Of a stretch of 64,000 nucleotides of DNA, positions 26,495 through 39,434 are shown in pieces. The number at the start of each line of letters is the position of its first letter. Position 1 is the stretch's first letter. This DNA comes from Escherichia phage vB_EcoM_112, in the sequence record NC_024125.2. One strand, written 5' to 3'. Made by a program: the position numbers and the translations under genes. The notes beneath the pieces were generated by a model. It did no database searches and had not been told where the DNA came from. It saw nothing but the letters and a program-made list of their open reading frames with translations.

Positions 26495-26707
26495 TCATTT
26501 TTGTCCTGTATTTACTTTATGCCGATGCACGGCCTTAACTTTATCAAGGTATTTTTCAAAATTTCGCAATCTAGTATAGTCTGCCGGAGATTGATTGAGT
26601 GATACTTCTCGACGCAAAGCTGAAATGATATTTCCAACTTCCCTACGAATTTCATCTAATTGAAGCACAGTAAGATTGCGAAGTTGCTTTTCAGTTAATT
26701 GTAGCAT
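26495..26707 (-). CDS. hypothetical small protein
   Basis: 70 aa, basic. Confidence 0.45.
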
Positions 26708-26731
26708 ATATACCCCTTTAGTTAGATAAAC

Positions 26732-26739
26732 CTATTTAT
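26732..26739 (-). promoter_or_regulatory. late promoter -10 element (TATAAATA)
   Basis: Plus-strand TATTTATA is TATAAATA on the minus strand, upstream of the rI block. Confidence 0.4.
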
Positions 26740-26749
26740 AACTTTTGCA

Positions 26750-27331
26750 CTAACCGAGCTTTTTAGTTAATTCATTCCAATGTTTTCTACACAAAGAAAC
26801 ATAAATTTCATCACCAATACAGATTTGATTACCTTCTTTAACTGGTGTTCCATCTTCCATTAATCGAGCTGTCATAATCGCTTTTTTGCCGCAATGACAA
26901 ACTGCCTTTAGTTCAATAAGTTTATCTGCAATCGCTAAAAGTTCTTTAGAACCTTCAAACAATTTTCCAGCGAAATCAGTCCTTAATCCATAAGCCATAA
27001 CAGGAACATTATATGTATCAACAATTCGGCTCAATTGATGCACCTGTTCAGTTTTTAAAAACTGGGCTTCATCTACAAATACGCAATGAATATCTTTTTG
27101 TGCTTCAGCCCATTTATAGAACTCGAAAATATCCATATCATCTGTAATAATATTTGCTTCCTGCCTAATTCCAATGCGAGAAACGACTTCACAGACAGAA
27201 TCGCGAGTATCAATAGCAGGCTTAAGAACTAATACACTCATTCCACGTTCTTTATAATTATGTGCAGCAGTCAAAAGAGAAGCAGATTTTCCAGCATTCA
27301 TTGCTGCATAAGTAAAAATTAAACTCGCCAT
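26750..27331 (-). CDS. tk: thymidine kinase
   Basis: 193 aa, P-loop AAMNAGKS, C-terminal Zn-binding cysteines; T4 Tk. Confidence 0.9.
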   Translation of the reverse strand: MASLIFTYAAMNAGKSASLLTAAHNYKERGMSVLVLKPAIDTRDSVCEVVSRIGIRQEANIITDDMDIFEFYKWAEAQKDIHCVFVDEAQFLKTEQVHQLSRIVDTYNVPVMAYGLRTDFAGKLFEGSKELLAIADKLIELKAVCHCGKKAIMTARLMEDGTPVKEGNQICIGDEIYVSLCRKHWNELTKKLG

Positions 27332-27332
27332 C

Positions 27333-27521
27333 TTAGTCCTTAGTTAAATTTTCTAAATATGTTTCTAAATCATTTTCAGCTTTATCGATAGATTTTACTA
27401 ATTCGTAATATGTTTCGGCATCTCCATATTCAGAAGATATTTCAAAAGACAAATCCTTTTCTAAACTAATAATTTCACCAACTAAAAATAATATTTCGTT
27501 CTTTTGTTCGCGAGTAATCAT
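27333..27521 (-). CDS. small helical protein (EQ..KL family)
   Basis: 62 aa, MITREQKNEILFLVGEI... Confidence 0.4.
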   Translation of the reverse strand: MITREQKNEILFLVGEIISLEKDLSFEISSEYGDAETYYELVKSIDKAENDLETYLENLTKD

Positions 27522-27703
27522 AAGGAATTTATATAATTAATAAGTTCTTGTTCTTTATTATCGAATTCTTTAGAAAGTTCTTCGTACTCGTTTGCACTAA
27601 AAGGACCGCATTCATTACAAACTTTTTCCAATTCGCTATTTTTATCCATAACTTCGTGGATAAGAGAAAAGAGTTTGTCTTTTTGTTCTTTGCTTAGGCT
27701 CAT
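27518..27703 (-). CDS. small helical protein (EQ..KL family)
   Basis: 61 aa, MSLSKEQKDKLFSLIHEV... Confidence 0.4.
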   Translation of the reverse strand: MSLSKEQKDKLFSLIHEVMDKNSELEKVCNECGPFSANEYEELSKEFDNKEQELINYINSL

Positions 27704-27873
27704 ATATTAATTTCCAGAAGTTTTAAAATAATTCGCTTTTGCTTAAATATTTCCATAGTTAAATGATCAGTATCTTTTTGACCAATTCCAATGGCAAAAC
27801 CTTTATTAGCAGCGAGTTCAATTAAATTATCAAGTTCACGTAACACTTCGTACTGTAACTCAGAACTATTCAT
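27700..27873 (-). CDS. small helical protein (57 aa, below the track cutoff)
   Basis: Hand-translated MNSSELQYEVLRELDNLIEL...; ATGA-coupled on both sides. Confidence 0.3.
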   Translation of the reverse strand: MNSSELQYEVLRELDNLIELAANKGFAIGIGQKDTDHLTMEIFKQKRIILKLLEINI

Positions 27874-28082
27874 TTCGGTTTACCTTCTTTAACGAAATCT
27901 GGATAAGGATAAAATCCCGAATAAAATCCTTCACCTTTATGATTGACGCATCCTTTATTAGAACAATAGCACCAATAATCGAAATCACAAGCCATTTCAT
28001 CGTTGCATAAAGCAAAAACAACCGGCCACTTACACTTTTCACAATGGGCATTTTTAAGAATACTAGTTTGGCTCATAACCAT
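27870..28082 (-). CDS. Cys-rich small protein (putative zinc-binding)
   Basis: 70 aa with CEKC...C...C.C...C motifs. Confidence 0.45.
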   Translation of the reverse strand: MVMSQTSILKNAHCEKCKWPVVFALCNDEMACDFDYWCYCSNKGCVNHKGEGFYSGFYPYPDFVKEGKPK

Positions 28083-28300
28083 GTCACCTTTAAGCAGTAT
28101 TCTTCTACATGCTGTTTACGACCTTTCTTATCAATAAAGGTATATTCAACGAATGTTCCAATGTAGTCTTTATCTACATCATGTGGACTATTAATTGGAC
28201 ATTTAGTACGGCAAATGCGTTCCCATTGACGAATAATTACTGCCTTATTCTTTGGGTCATACGGATGTGGATAATGTATATTCATAATAACGGTTCCCAA
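28073..28300 (-). CDS. hypothetical small protein
   Basis: 75-aa ORF. Confidence 0.4.
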   Translation of the reverse strand: MGTVIMNIHYPHPYDPKNKAVIIRQWERICRTKCPINSPHDVDKDYIGTFVEYTFIDKKGRKQHVEEYCLKVTWL

Positions 28301-28749
28301 TCAACAATCACAATTTCTAATTTAGAGGAATATGTATCTAAAATCCCCTCAATAATATCCCAGTTCCCTTTACCTATGCCTGCACCAATCCTAGGCATAT
28401 AGATTGTAGGTTTAATCAGTTTATTTTCACCAAACTCATTTAATTCTAACATACAATTCATTAAAGCGGAATACTCAAAATTTGGCCCCGGTTGAAATTG
28501 AGTATAAAGATTAAAGCAGTAAGCTTTATGAGTCCTAAAGTATTTTTCATAGACTGAGTAAGAACCGAGTTTAGTTACATCGCCCCATTCTGTCTGTAAT
28601 TTATCAGCTTCCAAAATTTTAGGGAAAGCTTTGGTTAATTGACCCGCTACGCCTGAACCCATAGTATGAAAACAATTGCATCCATGCGCAATATTTTTAC
28701 CTTCAGCGAAAAGGGCGACAATATCGCCCTTGATATATTTTACAATCAT
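28282..28749 (-). CDS. macro-domain-like protein (putative ADP-ribose binding/processing)
   Basis: GDIVALFAEGKNIAHGCNCFHTMGSGVAG and IGAGIGKGNW blocks resemble macro-domain phosphate-binding loops. Confidence 0.5.
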   Translation of the reverse strand: MIVKYIKGDIVALFAEGKNIAHGCNCFHTMGSGVAGQLTKAFPKILEADKLQTEWGDVTKLGSYSVYEKYFRTHKAYCFNLYTQFQPGPNFEYSALMNCMLELNEFGENKLIKPTIYMPRIGAGIGKGNWDIIEGILDTYSSKLEIVIVDWEPLL

Positions 28750-29087
28750 CTAGTACTCAATCCTCGATTATAAGAATCTACCAAACGGTCAACCATTGAA
28801 TGACAAGCGGCTTTATCTTTCTCCTCCGCAACTGAACATTCTAAAGTATTCCACTTTTTAGCATATCGTTTTAACAATGTATCATTTTTGTATCTGCTTG
28901 ATTTATCTCTTTCTCCGTCTTTATATGCATATATTAATTTCTGCGCAAATTCAGCTTGGCATGCTTTATTTTTCCCGCAATAATCCGCTGCAGTACGGTT
29001 TACATACTCTCTAATTTCAGTATATGATGTATCTGCTAACGCAGAAAATGAAATTAATCCTATACATAAAACCAAAATTTTAGTCAT
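28746..29087 (-). CDS. secreted small protein (T4 vs-locus position)
   Basis: 113 aa with cleavable signal peptide MTKILVLCIGLISFSALA and four cysteines. Confidence 0.5.
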   Translation of the reverse strand: MTKILVLCIGLISFSALADTSYTEIREYVNRTAADYCGKNKACQAEFAQKLIYAYKDGERDKSSRYKNDTLLKRYAKKWNTLECSVAEEKDKAACHSMVDRLVDSYNRGLSTR

Positions 29088-38155: not shown

Positions 38156-38821
38156 TTAAAATTTCATTTTTCGACCTTTAAACCATCCTTCTGGAATTGG
38201 GTCAGTTTTCTTAATACGTTTAGAAACTTTTTCATCTAATGAATGAATCCACATCATACCGAATTGGGAATTCTTTTCACCTTTCTGGTGATTATTTTTG
38301 GCGTGAGATTCTTTCATTTTATTAATAGTTTCAGGAGTATGGGTCTTACCCAAGAAAGATTTAGTATTTAAAAATTTCTCTCTATACTTAGGATTATCCC
38401 AAAGCTGTTTAAACCTTTCTGAACCCATTTTACGATATTTTTCTTTAAGGTCTGGGTCGTTCTCAAATCTGGTTTTAAAAGCGGCAGCTCCTTTTAAGGA
38501 AGCTTCTTTCTTTTTATCCAAATATTCTTTAGTGTTTAAATGGTCCCAACCACCTTCACCACCTAATTTCAAATTATAAACATCAGGGCGCTTTAAAAAC
38601 TCTTCAGTCACAATATTCTTTTCTAACTCAAACATAGAGGTTTTATCGTCAAAGAACTCTAATATTTCTTTAGAAAAATTTTCTATACCATACTTATCTT
38701 GGGCTCTTTTTAATAATTTACCAGAACCCATATATCCATCATCTAAATTTTCGGTAGAATGAGCGCCTATATAGATTTTATTATTAATTTTATTTGTTAT
38801 TTTATAAATGTAATGGAACAT
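38156..38821 (-). CDS. segB: GIY-YIG homing endonuclease SegB
   Basis: 221 aa, HYIYKITNKINNKIYIGAHS GIY-YIG motif; embedded in the tRNA cluster as in T4. Confidence 0.8.
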   Translation of the reverse strand: MFHYIYKITNKINNKIYIGAHSTENLDDGYMGSGKLLKRAQDKYGIENFSKEILEFFDDKTSMFELEKNIVTEEFLKRPDVYNLKLGGEGGWDHLNTKEYLDKKKEASLKGAAAFKTRFENDPDLKEKYRKMGSERFKQLWDNPKYREKFLNTKSFLGKTHTPETINKMKESHAKNNHQKGEKNSQFGMMWIHSLDEKVSKRIKKTDPIPEGWFKGRKMKF

Positions 38822-38862
38822 AAATATCTCCTATTTCTAAGAGTATTTATGTTCCCAAAATA

Positions 38863-38934
38863 TGGCCCTGGGTGGAATTGAACCACCATCTGGCGATTAT
38901 GAGTCGCTTGCTTGAACCTTCCAGCTACAGGGCC
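38863..38934 (-). tRNA. tRNA-Ile (anticodon CAT, presumably lysidine-modified)
   Basis: Manual fold: acceptor GGCCCTG/CAGGGCC, anticodon loop CTCATAA, T-arm GGTGG-TTCAATT-CCACC. Confidence 0.75.
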
Positions 38935-38940
38935 TTGATA

Positions 38941-39013
38941 TGCTGATTGGCGGAATCGAACCGCCGACGTCCTCATTACAAGTGAGGTGCTCTACCTACT
39001 GAGCTAAATCAGC
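38941..39013 (-). tRNA. tRNA-Thr (anticodon TGT)
   Basis: Acceptor GCTGATT/AATCAGC, anticodon loop CTTGTAA, T-loop GGTTCGATTCC. Confidence 0.8.
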
Positions 39014-39020
39014 GAAATTA

Positions 39021-39107
39021 CGGAGGCGATAGGATTCGAACCTATGAGTCGCCGGAGCGACTGCCGGTTTTCAAGACCGGTGCATTAAACCACTCTGCCA
39101 CGCCTCC
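39021..39107 (-). tRNA. tRNA-Ser (anticodon TGA), long variable arm
   Basis: Acceptor GGAGGCG/CGCCTCC, anticodon loop CTTGAAA, 17-nt variable arm. Confidence 0.8.
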
Positions 39108-39109
39108 AG

Positions 39110-39183
39110 TCTCCGCGGCAGGATTTGAACCTGCGACATTCTGCTCCCAAAGCAGACGCTCTACCAAACTGAGCTACACGAAG
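39110..39183 (-). tRNA. tRNA-Pro (anticodon TGG)
   Basis: Acceptor CTTCGTG/CGCGGAG with two G-U pairs, anticodon loop TTTGGGA, T-arm GCAGG-TTCAAAT-CCTGC. Confidence 0.75.
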
Positions 39184-39195
39184 TAAATTAAATTT

Positions 39196-39267
<72 letters not shown>

Positions 39268-39273
39268 AAACTT

Positions 39274-39360
39274 TGGTACGAGAAGTGGGACTCGAACCCA
39301 CAAGGAAATCATTCCGCAGCATTTTAAGTGCTGTGCCTTTACCAATTTGACCATTCTCGC
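39274..39360 (-). tRNA. tRNA-Leu (anticodon TAA), CCA encoded
   Basis: Acceptor GCGAGAA/TTCTCGT, anticodon loop CTTAAAA, long variable arm. Confidence 0.8.
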
Positions 39361-39361
39361 G

Positions 39362-39434
39362 CTGGGAATAAAGGACTCGAACCTTTGCATCTAGCAGTCA
39401 AAGTGCTATGCCTTACCAACTTGGCTAATTCCCA
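39362..39434 (-). tRNA. tRNA-Gln (anticodon TTG)
   Basis: Acceptor TGGGAAT/ATTCCCA, anticodon loop CTTTGAC; directly abuts tRNA-Leu. Confidence 0.8.

What the first reader, a model, noticed from the sequence alone, without database searches (positions are those of the whole stretch)
28282..28749. Macro-domain-like protein in the tk to regB interval
The 155-aa ORF has blocks resembling the macro-domain phosphate-binding loops (GDIVALFAEGKNIAHGCNCFHTMGSGVAG and IGAGIGKGNW). In a phage that carries ADP-ribosyltransferases elsewhere in its genome (Alt/ModA/ModB in T4), a macro domain could reverse host ADP-ribosylation or hydrolyse ADP-ribose-derived immune signals.
Basis: inference. Interest (0 to 1): 0.6.

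Follow-up and report, generated by a model that had tools for sequence, protein, structure and literature searches.

The report
T4 Tk.4/AdfM anti-DarT2 macrodomain

Summary

The function is already published. A 2025 preprint found tk.4 as the only T4 gene needed on a DarTG2 host. A clean knockout was sensitised, and the gene was named adfM. Many GenBank records already say "macro domain protein".

What I add is that Tk.4 is not a DarG2-type macrodomain. The catalytic lysine of DarG (K80), TARG1 (K84) and PhiKZ AdfM is replaced by an invariant glutamine (Q84). This is the arrangement in Streptomyces SCO6735 and BT_1257, where the Gln and a partner Asn are essential for removing ADP-ribose from thymidine in DNA. 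This Gln type occurs in about 2,750 of 50,697 phage records, against 276 for the PhiKZ/DarG2 type.

Most likely mechanism: lysine-independent hydrolysis of thymidine-linked ADP-ribose on phage DNA. The hydrolysis step is inferred for T4, not shown.

Verdict: observation confirmed, interpretation supported, already known, low interest.

The parts
28282..28749 (-). tk.4 / adfM coding sequence (155 aa), a single macrodomain
28642..28686 (-). Loop 1: H22-G-C-N25-C-F-H-T-M-G-S-G-V-A-G36, the distal-ribose/phosphate-binding loop holding the conserved Asn
   Evidence: Coordinates checked by translation. N25, C26 and G33 are invariant and H22 and C24 nearly invariant in 45 homologues. The loop aligns with SCO6735 H24-V25-C26-N27. 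N27 is needed for SCO6735 activity (PMC9411070). The equivalent Asn mutant (N23A) reduces PhiKZ AdfM activity (PMC13309987).
28486..28512 (-). N80-L-Y-T-Q84-F-Q-P-G88 motif; Q84 occupies the position of the DarG K80 / TARG1 K84 catalytic lysine
   Evidence: hhalign of the family profile pairs Q84 with TARG1 K84, Taq DarG K80 and SCO6735 Q85. MAFFT alignments agree. N80, Y82, T83, Q84 and G88 are invariant in 45/45 sequences. Gln is kept in 6/6 distant phage lineages.
28360..28395 (-). Loop 2: P119-R-I-G122-A-G124-I-G-K-G-N-W130, the diphosphate-binding loop
   Evidence: Coordinates checked. P119, G122 and G124 are invariant. The loop aligns with SCO6735 P-R-I-G126-C-G128. G126 of Tk.4 sits where TARG1 has catalytic D125.
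28746..28749 (-). ATGA overlap: vs stop codon (TGA) and tk.4 start codon (ATG)
   Evidence: Read directly from the sequence and the ORF coordinates. It suggests translational coupling within a tightly packed early-gene run.
28282..28285 (-). ATGA overlap: tk.4 stop codon (TGA) and tk.3 start codon (ATG)
   Evidence: Read directly from the sequence. tk.3 is 28073-28285, by correspondence with the annotated CDS.

Best explanation
The ORF is the T4-type tk.4 gene, now called adfM (anti-DarT factor, macrodomain). It encodes a free-standing 155-residue macrodomain made early in infection. The bacterial DarTG2 defence releases DarT2, which attaches ADP-ribose to thymidines in single-stranded phage DNA and blocks replication. 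Tk.4 most likely binds the ADP-ribose through its two glycine-rich loops and hydrolyses the thymine-ribose bond, restoring normal DNA. It acts as an orphan antitoxin.

Its active site is not the DarG2/TARG1 lysine type. It is the lysine-less SCO6735/BT_1257 type. There an invariant Gln (Q84), held by an invariant Asn (N25), positions the distal ribose, and a backbone-positioned water starts catalysis.

Shown here: identity to T4 Tk.4, the macro fold, the class assignment and the residue correspondences. Shown by others: the DarTG2 phenotype of T4 delta-tk.4, the dT-ADPr hydrolase activity of SCO6735 and its dependence on Gln85 and Asn27, and the hydrolase activity of DarG2 and PhiKZ AdfM. Inferred: that T4 Tk.4 itself hydrolyses dT-ADPr, and that it does so by the SCO6735-type mechanism.
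For: Identity: 100% to T4 Tk.4, with 7 synonymous and 0 non-synonymous differences, and the same vs-tk.4-tk.3 synteny.

Defence link: the only hits in the defence and NCBI libraries are to the DarG macro domain (PADLOC 1.3e-9; NCBIfam 2.5e-7).

Genetics: tk.4 was the single HIDEN-SEQ hit on a DarTG2 host, and a clean knockout was sensitised.

Active site: Q84 pairs with SCO6735 Q85, DarG K80 and TARG1 K84. N25 pairs with SCO6735 N27. G122 and G124 pair with SCO6735 G126 and G128. All are invariant in 45/45 homologues. SCO6735 cleaves dT-ADPr DNA, Q85A is dead, N27S is nearly dead, and it protects against DarT (PMC9411070).
Against: No enzymology exists for T4 Tk.4 itself, and the T4 evidence is a single preprint with a genetic phenotype. 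A Gln at this position does not guarantee catalysis: the non-catalytic ALC1/CHD1L macrodomain also aligns a Gln there. SCO6735 Q85A still inhibits DarT by direct interaction in vitro, so protection without hydrolysis is conceivable. I could not measure the N25-Q84 geometry because the model coordinates were not exposed. Tk.4 is only 21-29% identical to SCO6735 and BT_1257 and has a shorter loop after Q84, lacking SCO6735's Lys89/Lys94 DNA-binding residues.
Confidence: 0.82

Rival explanations
1. Tk.4 protects against DarTG2 mainly by binding and inhibiting the DarT2 toxin, or by shielding ADP-ribosylated DNA, rather than by hydrolysing the modification.
For: Catalytically dead SCO6735 Q85A, DarG K80A and TARG1 K84A all inhibit DarT in vitro, with SCO6735 the strongest (PMC9411070). 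Tk.4 lacks the canonical catalytic lysine.
Against: Every residue SCO6735 needs for catalysis is invariant across 45 homologues and 6 distant phage lineages, which is hard to explain for a mere binder. Tk.4 lacks the C-terminal DarT-binding domain of DarG (155 aa against a 338-position model). PhiKZ AdfM works enzymatically.
Confidence: 0.07
2. Tk.4 is primarily a small-molecule ADP-ribose-derivative hydrolase: an ADP-ribose-1''-phosphate phosphatase like yeast Poa1p, or an O-acetyl-ADP-ribose deacetylase. That is what the 'phosphatase' and 'OAADPr deacetylase' database names imply. The DarTG2 phenotype would then be secondary.
Against: These names are transferred annotations, not tests. Poa1p has Ser, not Gln, at the Q84 column (alignment). 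T4 has no known pathway that makes Appr1p (my own knowledge). The only phenotype found is DarTG2-specific, and tk.4 was the only hit in that screen.
Confidence: 0.05
3. Tk.4 removes ADP-ribose from proteins or RNA. It would either tune the phage's own Alt/ModA/ModB modifications or reverse other host ADP-ribosylating defences (CmdTAC mRNA ADP-ribosylation, Thoeris signals).
For: SCO6735 also de-ADP-ribosylates automodified PARP1, and TARG1 acts on Glu/Asp-linked ADPr.
Against: Wild-type T4, which carries tk.4, is still strongly restricted by CmdTAC (PMC11618068). Alt, ModA and ModB modify arginine (my own knowledge), a linkage for which no activity of this macrodomain class was found in the papers read. 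tk.4 is dispensable on plain E. coli K-12 and only matters with DarTG2. Thoeris was not tested in the papers read.
Confidence: 0.05

Closest known systems
Phage T4 Tk.4 = AdfM (anti-DarT factor, macrodomain); bioRxiv 10.1101/2025.11.20.689424
   Same: The protein sequence is identical, and so are the position and neighbours, vs upstream and tk.3 downstream.
   Different: None at protein level; there are 7 synonymous nucleotide differences. The window phage is a T4 relative, not T4 itself: it has a 367-bp insertion between tk.2 and tk.3.
Streptomyces coelicolor SCO6735 (PDB 5E3B) and Bacteroides BT_1257 (PDB 2FG1/2AFC): lysine-less ALC1-like-class macrodomains
   Different: They are cellular proteins and only 21-29% identical to Tk.4. 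SCO6735 and BT_1257 have N-M-I-G-Q and a longer, Lys-bearing mobile loop, whereas Tk.4 has N-L-Y-T-Q-F-Q-P-G and a short loop. Activity is shown for SCO6735 but not for Tk.4.
DarG2 antitoxin macrodomain (Thermus aquaticus 5M31/5M3E, M. tuberculosis 5M3I)
   Different: Catalytic Lys80 is replaced by Gln84. There is no C-terminal DarT-binding domain. The NCBIfam score is 30.3 against a cut-off of 250. Tk.4 is not encoded next to a DarT.
PhiKZ gp104 AdfM (Cell Rep 2026, PMC13309987)
   Same: Same name, same proposed role (phage orphan anti-DarT2 macrodomain), and the same conserved loop-1 Asn.
   Different: PhiKZ AdfM is a true DarG2-type protein (E 9.4e-25 to Mtb DarG, with F-P-T-K retained). 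It shares only a 23-residue BLAST match with Tk.4. It is imported into the phage nucleus and has direct biochemistry. It is found in 276 phage records against 2,749 for the Tk.4 type.
Human TARG1/OARD1 and yeast Poa1p
   Different: The TARG1 dyad K84/D125 corresponds to Q84/G126 in Tk.4. Poa1p is an Appr1p phosphatase with Ser at the Q84 column.
T4 AdfN (gene 30.3), NADAR-type anti-DarT1 factor (PMC11825919)
   Same: Same strategy in the same phage: an orphan antitoxin-like hydrolase that removes DarT-made ADP-ribose from DNA.
   Different: The fold (NADAR) is unrelated. It acts on guanosine-ADPr made by DarT1, not on thymidine-ADPr made by DarT2.

Membership tests
Macro domain superfamily (Pfam PF01661) | Score at or above Pfam's gathering threshold | tested here: met
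   27.7 bits against a cut-off of 22, covering residues 22-132 and profile positions 2-113 of 118.
Macro domain superfamily (Pfam PF01661) | Three-layer alpha/beta/alpha macro fold | tested here: met
Macro domain superfamily (Pfam PF01661) | ADP-ribose binding in vitro | not testable with these tools
   This needs ITC, DSF or a co-crystal. The binding loops (N25, G31-x-G33, G122-x-G124) are present and invariant.
ALC1-like class (TARG1 / DarG / Poa1p / SCO6735) | Closer in structure to this class than to MacroD-type or viral macrodomains | tested here: met
T4 Tk.4 / AdfM | Orthology: sequence identity and conserved position between vs and tk.3 | tested here: met
   100% protein identity, with synteny as in AF158101 and OR062944.
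T4 Tk.4 / AdfM | Required for plating on DarTG2-expressing hosts | not testable with these tools
   Published for T4, whose protein is identical. Not tested for this phage.
SCO6735 / BT_1257-type (lysine-less) dT-ADPr hydrolases | Gln at the position of the DarG K80 / TARG1 K84 | tested here: met
   Q84 pairs with SCO6735 Q85. It is invariant in 45/45 homologues and in 6/6 distant phage homologues.
SCO6735 / BT_1257-type (lysine-less) dT-ADPr hydrolases | Partner Asn (SCO6735 N27) and loop-2 Gly (G128) that are required for activity | tested here: met
   N25 and G124 align with N27 and G128 and are invariant. Their roles are described in PMC9411070.
SCO6735 / BT_1257-type (lysine-less) dT-ADPr hydrolases | Hydrolysis of thymidine-linked ADP-ribose on ssDNA | not testable with these tools
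   No enzymology for Tk.4 was found in the literature searched.
DarG antitoxin (NCBIfam NF048014, equivalog) | Score at or above the curated cut-off | tested here: not met
   30.3 bits against a cut-off of 250; only the macro part of the model (positions 2-146 of 338) is matched.
DarG antitoxin (NCBIfam NF048014, equivalog) | Catalytic lysine (Taq DarG K80) | tested here: not met
   hhalign and MAFFT place Q84 at that column.
DarG antitoxin (NCBIfam NF048014, equivalog) | C-terminal DarT-binding domain and an adjacent darT gene | tested here: not met
   The protein is 155 aa and is macro domain only. Its neighbours are vs and tk.3. The homologue contexts examined are T4-like phage gene sets without DarT.
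TARG1 / OARD1 | Lys84-Asp125 catalytic dyad | tested here: not met
   Q84 and G126 align with K84 and D125. Position 126 is Ala or Gly across the family.
Poa1p-type ADP-ribose-1''-phosphate phosphatase | Active-site residues probed in Poa1p structures (H23, S30) and phosphatase activity | tested here: inconclusive
   In the pairwise alignment, H22 and T29 align with the Poa1p residues I equate with H23 and S30, assuming a 3-residue chain offset (mutant names). Poa1p has Ser where Tk.4 has Q84. Activity cannot be tested here.

The most novel reading that the evidence does not exclude
Phages have recruited two different macrodomain lineages as anti-DarT2 factors. One is a DarG2-derived lysine type (PhiKZ and other chimalliviruses). 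The other is a lysine-less Gln type related to SCO6735/BT_1257 (T4 Tk.4 and homologues in Felix-O1-like, Vequintavirinae-like, Otagovirus and Bacillus phages). The Gln type is about ten times more common in sequenced phages. It would work by the unusual backbone/water-mediated mechanism proposed for SCO6735 and, like SCO6735, may also act on protein-linked ADP-ribose. Neither AdfM paper mentions this distinction.
Probability: 0.6. Interest if true: 0.35.

Novelty: already known. Interest (0 to 1): 0.2.

Why it matters
DarTG systems stop phages by ADP-ribosylating their DNA, and phage orphan antitoxins such as AdfN and AdfM explain why T-even phages escape them. For this window the gene's identity and role are already published, so nothing new follows from the finding itself. 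The small added value is the subclass assignment. T4 AdfM carries the SCO6735-type Gln active site rather than the DarG lysine. That tells experimenters which residues to mutate (Q84 and N25, not a lysine). It also warns against treating T4 AdfM and PhiKZ AdfM as one family, and it suggests that most phage macrodomains labelled 'phosphatase' may in fact be anti-DarT2 enzymes.

Tried and rejected
1. Promoter and terminator scan of 26600-31400: 19 promoter-like sites against 18.5 expected, and 4 terminator-like against 2.7 expected. This gives no usable signal.

2. I looked for a bacterial origin or DarT linkage through homologues labelled as bacterial MAG proteins (P0072, P0118). Both lie on T4-like phage contigs (Rnl1, Dda-like helicase, PNKP, dCMP deaminase) with no DarT nearby.

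3. I wanted to measure the N25-Q84 distance in the model, but the coordinates are not exposed to scripts.

5. I considered and rejected an anti-CmdTAC role, because wild-type T4 is restricted by CmdTAC.

6. I considered a Thoeris role. The papers read contain no data on it.

7. I considered DarG membership and rejected it on score, on the catalytic residue and on domain architecture.

8. I did not run the 1.84-billion-protein representative search or a metagenome scan. The question was already settled and they would mostly return more Gln-type phage proteins.

9. Three literature calls failed on the 3-character term rule and were repeated with other terms.

Full report
**Observation**

The window is a T4-like phage (Tequatrovirus). 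Its tk-to-regB segment is 98-99% identical to many T-even genomes. The ORF listing gives a 155-aa ATG-started ORF at 28282-28749 on the minus strand. It lies between tk (26750-27331) and regB (29633-30094), directly downstream of vs and upstream of tk.3. It shares 4-nt ATGA start/stop overlaps with both neighbours. The protein is 100% identical to T4 Tk.4, formerly ORF 60.5. At the DNA level it differs from reference T4 at 7 of 468 positions, all synonymous.

**Is it a macrodomain?**

Yes, by every test available.
- Pfam Macro (PF01661) scores 27.7 bits against a gathering cut-off of 22.
- phmmer against PDB sequences finds BT1257 (1.3e-9), Poa1p, SCO6735, DarG and TARG1.
- A profile of 45 homologues raises these to between 4.6e-18 and 2e-11.
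- An AlphaFold2 model built on that alignment has pLDDT 95.2 and pTM 0.90, with the expected beta-alpha alternation.
- Foldseek matches TARG1, Poa1p, BT_1257 and DarG with TM 0.7-0.8.

Tk.4 therefore belongs to the TARG1/DarG/Poa1p/SCO6735 class, called 'ALC1-like' in PMC9411070.

**What is already known**

Several GenBank records already call this gene 'macro domain protein', and RefSeq/PHROG-derived records call it 'phosphatase'. The reference T4 record still says 'conserved hypothetical protein'. A 2022 survey had noted macro domains in 41% of myoviruses (PMC9503650).

The decisive source is the HIDEN-SEQ preprint (bioRxiv 10.1101/2025.11.20.689424). It screened a T4 transposon library on an E. 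coli host expressing DarTG2 and found tk.4 as the single significant hit. A clean tk.4 knockout was sensitised to DarTG2. The gene was named adfM, with enzymatic removal of ADP-ribose from DNA proposed by analogy with DarG.

Independently, a 2026 Cell Reports paper used the same name for PhiKZ gp104. It showed biochemically that gp104 removes ADP-ribose from a DarT2-modified oligonucleotide and rescues DarT2 toxicity (PMC13309987).

The finding is also already known.

**What kind of macrodomain is it?**

Here the evidence departs from the published framing of 'DarG homologue'.
- PhiKZ AdfM is a genuine DarG2-type protein. It scores E 9.4e-25 to the M. tuberculosis DarG macrodomain and keeps the F-P-T-K motif.
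- Tk.4 shares only a 23-residue BLAST match with PhiKZ AdfM.
- Tk.4 scores 30.3 bits on the NCBIfam DarG equivalog model, whose cut-off is 250.
- It has no C-terminal DarT-binding domain.

Profile-to-sequence alignments place an invariant glutamine, Q84 in the motif N-L-Y-T-Q, in the column of the catalytic lysine of TARG1 (K84) and of Taq DarG (K80). A multiple alignment places the F-P-T-K lysine of PhiKZ AdfM in the same column. TARG1's second catalytic residue, D125, corresponds to G126 in Tk.4. The importance of those lysines is documented: K80A DarG and K84A TARG1 are inactive and fail to rescue DarT toxicity (PMC8120803; PMC8501950).

A lysine-less branch is already described. In Streptomyces coelicolor SCO6735, and in its structural twin BT_1257, Gln85 occupies the lysine position.
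- Q85A abolishes activity, and N27S, which unlocks Gln85, nearly does.
- A water positioned by the Val25 backbone is proposed to start catalysis (PMC9411070).

I recovered the SCO6735 sequence from a PDB alignment and aligned it to the Tk.4 family profile, giving hhalign probability 98.7% and E 2.2e-16, the best of the five single proteins compared. The correspondences are:
- H22-G23-C24-N25 with H24-V25-C26-N27
- Q84 with Q85
- G122 and G124 with G126 and G128

N25, Q84, G122 and G124 are invariant in 45 of 45 homologues. The Gln is retained in six distant phage lineages sampled from the tblastn hit list: Felixounavirus, Otagovirus, Certrevirus, Vequintavirus, Justusliebigvirus and a Bacillus phage. 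Neither AdfM paper mentions SCO6735, TARG1 or the lysine/glutamine difference.

**Distribution and origin**

tblastn finds Tk.4-type genes in 2,749 of 50,697 phage records, against 276 for the PhiKZ type. Homologues labelled as bacterial MAG proteins turned out to lie on T4-like phage contigs, with no DarT nearby. The family is free-standing, an orphan antitoxin in the sense used for AdfN (PMC11825919).

**Mechanism**

Most likely (confidence about 0.8), Tk.4 binds ADP-ribosylated thymidine on single-stranded phage DNA and hydrolyses the N-glycosidic link by the lysine-independent, Gln/Asn-dependent route described for SCO6735. This reverses the action of DarT2.
- Shown here: identity, fold, class and residue correspondences.
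- Shown by others: the T4 genetic phenotype, and the chemistry in SCO6735, DarG and PhiKZ AdfM.
- Inferred: that Tk.4 itself is catalytic, and that it uses this mechanism.

**Rivals**

1. Stoichiometric inhibition of DarT2. This has a precedent in dead SCO6735, but strict conservation of the catalytic residues argues against it.
2. A Poa1p-like small-molecule phosphatase or deacetylase. This is the source of the 'phosphatase' label. It is supported only by transferred names and a shared H-x-C-N-C loop, and Poa1p has Ser at the Q84 column.
3. Protein or RNA de-ADP-ribosylation, including of Alt/Mod targets or CmdTAC products. Wild-type T4 remains sensitive to CmdTAC, and tk.4 matters only with DarTG2 in the published screen.

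**Caveats**

- The T4 evidence is one preprint.
- A Gln at this column also occurs in the non-catalytic ALC1 macrodomain.
- Tk.4 lacks SCO6735's lysine-bearing mobile loop.
- I could not inspect the side-chain geometry of the model.

**Verdict**

The gene is T4 tk.4/adfM and is already known. The only increment is the assignment to the Gln-type (SCO6735/BT_1257-like) branch rather than the DarG2 branch, plus the note that two unrelated macrodomain lineages now share the name AdfM. Interest is low (0.2).

Noticed in passing
window 27705-28071: A 367-bp insertion relative to reference T4 (AF158101) between tk.2 and tk.3. It carries two small minus-strand ORFs with overlapping starts and stops: 27700-27873 (57 aa, no family hit) and 27870-28076 (68 aa, Cys-rich, Pfam PF23895 'Phage zinc binding domain', 3.4e-29). 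The window phage is therefore a T4 relative, not T4 itself.
   Followed up: partly
window 27333-27521 and 27518-27703: tk.1 and tk.2 are tandem paralogues. Both match Pfam DUF7438 (6.8e-15 and 3.9e-19).
   Followed up: no
window 29080-29625: vs.1 (181 aa, listed as 'conserved hypothetical' in reference T4) matches the SLT lytic transglycosylase domain above Pfam's threshold (25.1 bits against 21.3). It has a hydrophobic, signal-like N-terminus. One public record already annotates the homologue as a lytic transglycosylase (H21).
   Followed up: no
window 28746-29087: The gene directly upstream, vs (valyl-tRNA synthetase modifier), is translationally coupled to tk.4 through an ATGA overlap. The same preprint reports it as the gene most depleted in minimal medium. 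It matches no Pfam or NCBIfam family.
   Followed up: no
window 37809-37902: ARAGORN calls a 94-nt 'tRNA-Lys(ttt)' on the minus strand that the Rfam tRNA model does not report at its gathering score. The other eight tRNAs (38075-39434) are found by both tools and correspond to the T4 tRNA cluster. It may be a false positive or a degenerate or intron-bearing tRNA-like element.
   Followed up: no
window 28711-28731: An 8-bp GC-rich inverted repeat (AAGGGCGA...TCGCCCTT) followed by a T-run on the plus strand lies inside the 5' end of tk.4, antisense to the gene. Terminator-like sites in the region are no more frequent than in shuffles (4 against 2.7), so this is probably chance.
   Followed up: no
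literature (PMC13309987 and bioRxiv 10.1101/2025.11.20.689424): Two groups independently gave the name AdfM to proteins from different macrodomain lineages: PhiKZ gp104 (Lys-type, DarG2-like) and T4 Tk.4 (Gln-type, SCO6735-like). The two share only a 23-residue BLAST match. This nomenclature collision could mislead annotation transfer.
   Followed up: yes
L003 and L004 (GCA_051648945.1 and GCA_051660865.1 contigs): Contigs deposited in bacterial MAGs ('Bacilli bacterium', 'Culicoidibacterales bacterium') carry T4-like phage gene sets (Rnl1, Dda-like helicase, PNKP, dCMP deaminase, T4 spanin). Their 'bacterial' macro-domain proteins are therefore really phage proteins binned into MAGs.
   Followed up: partly
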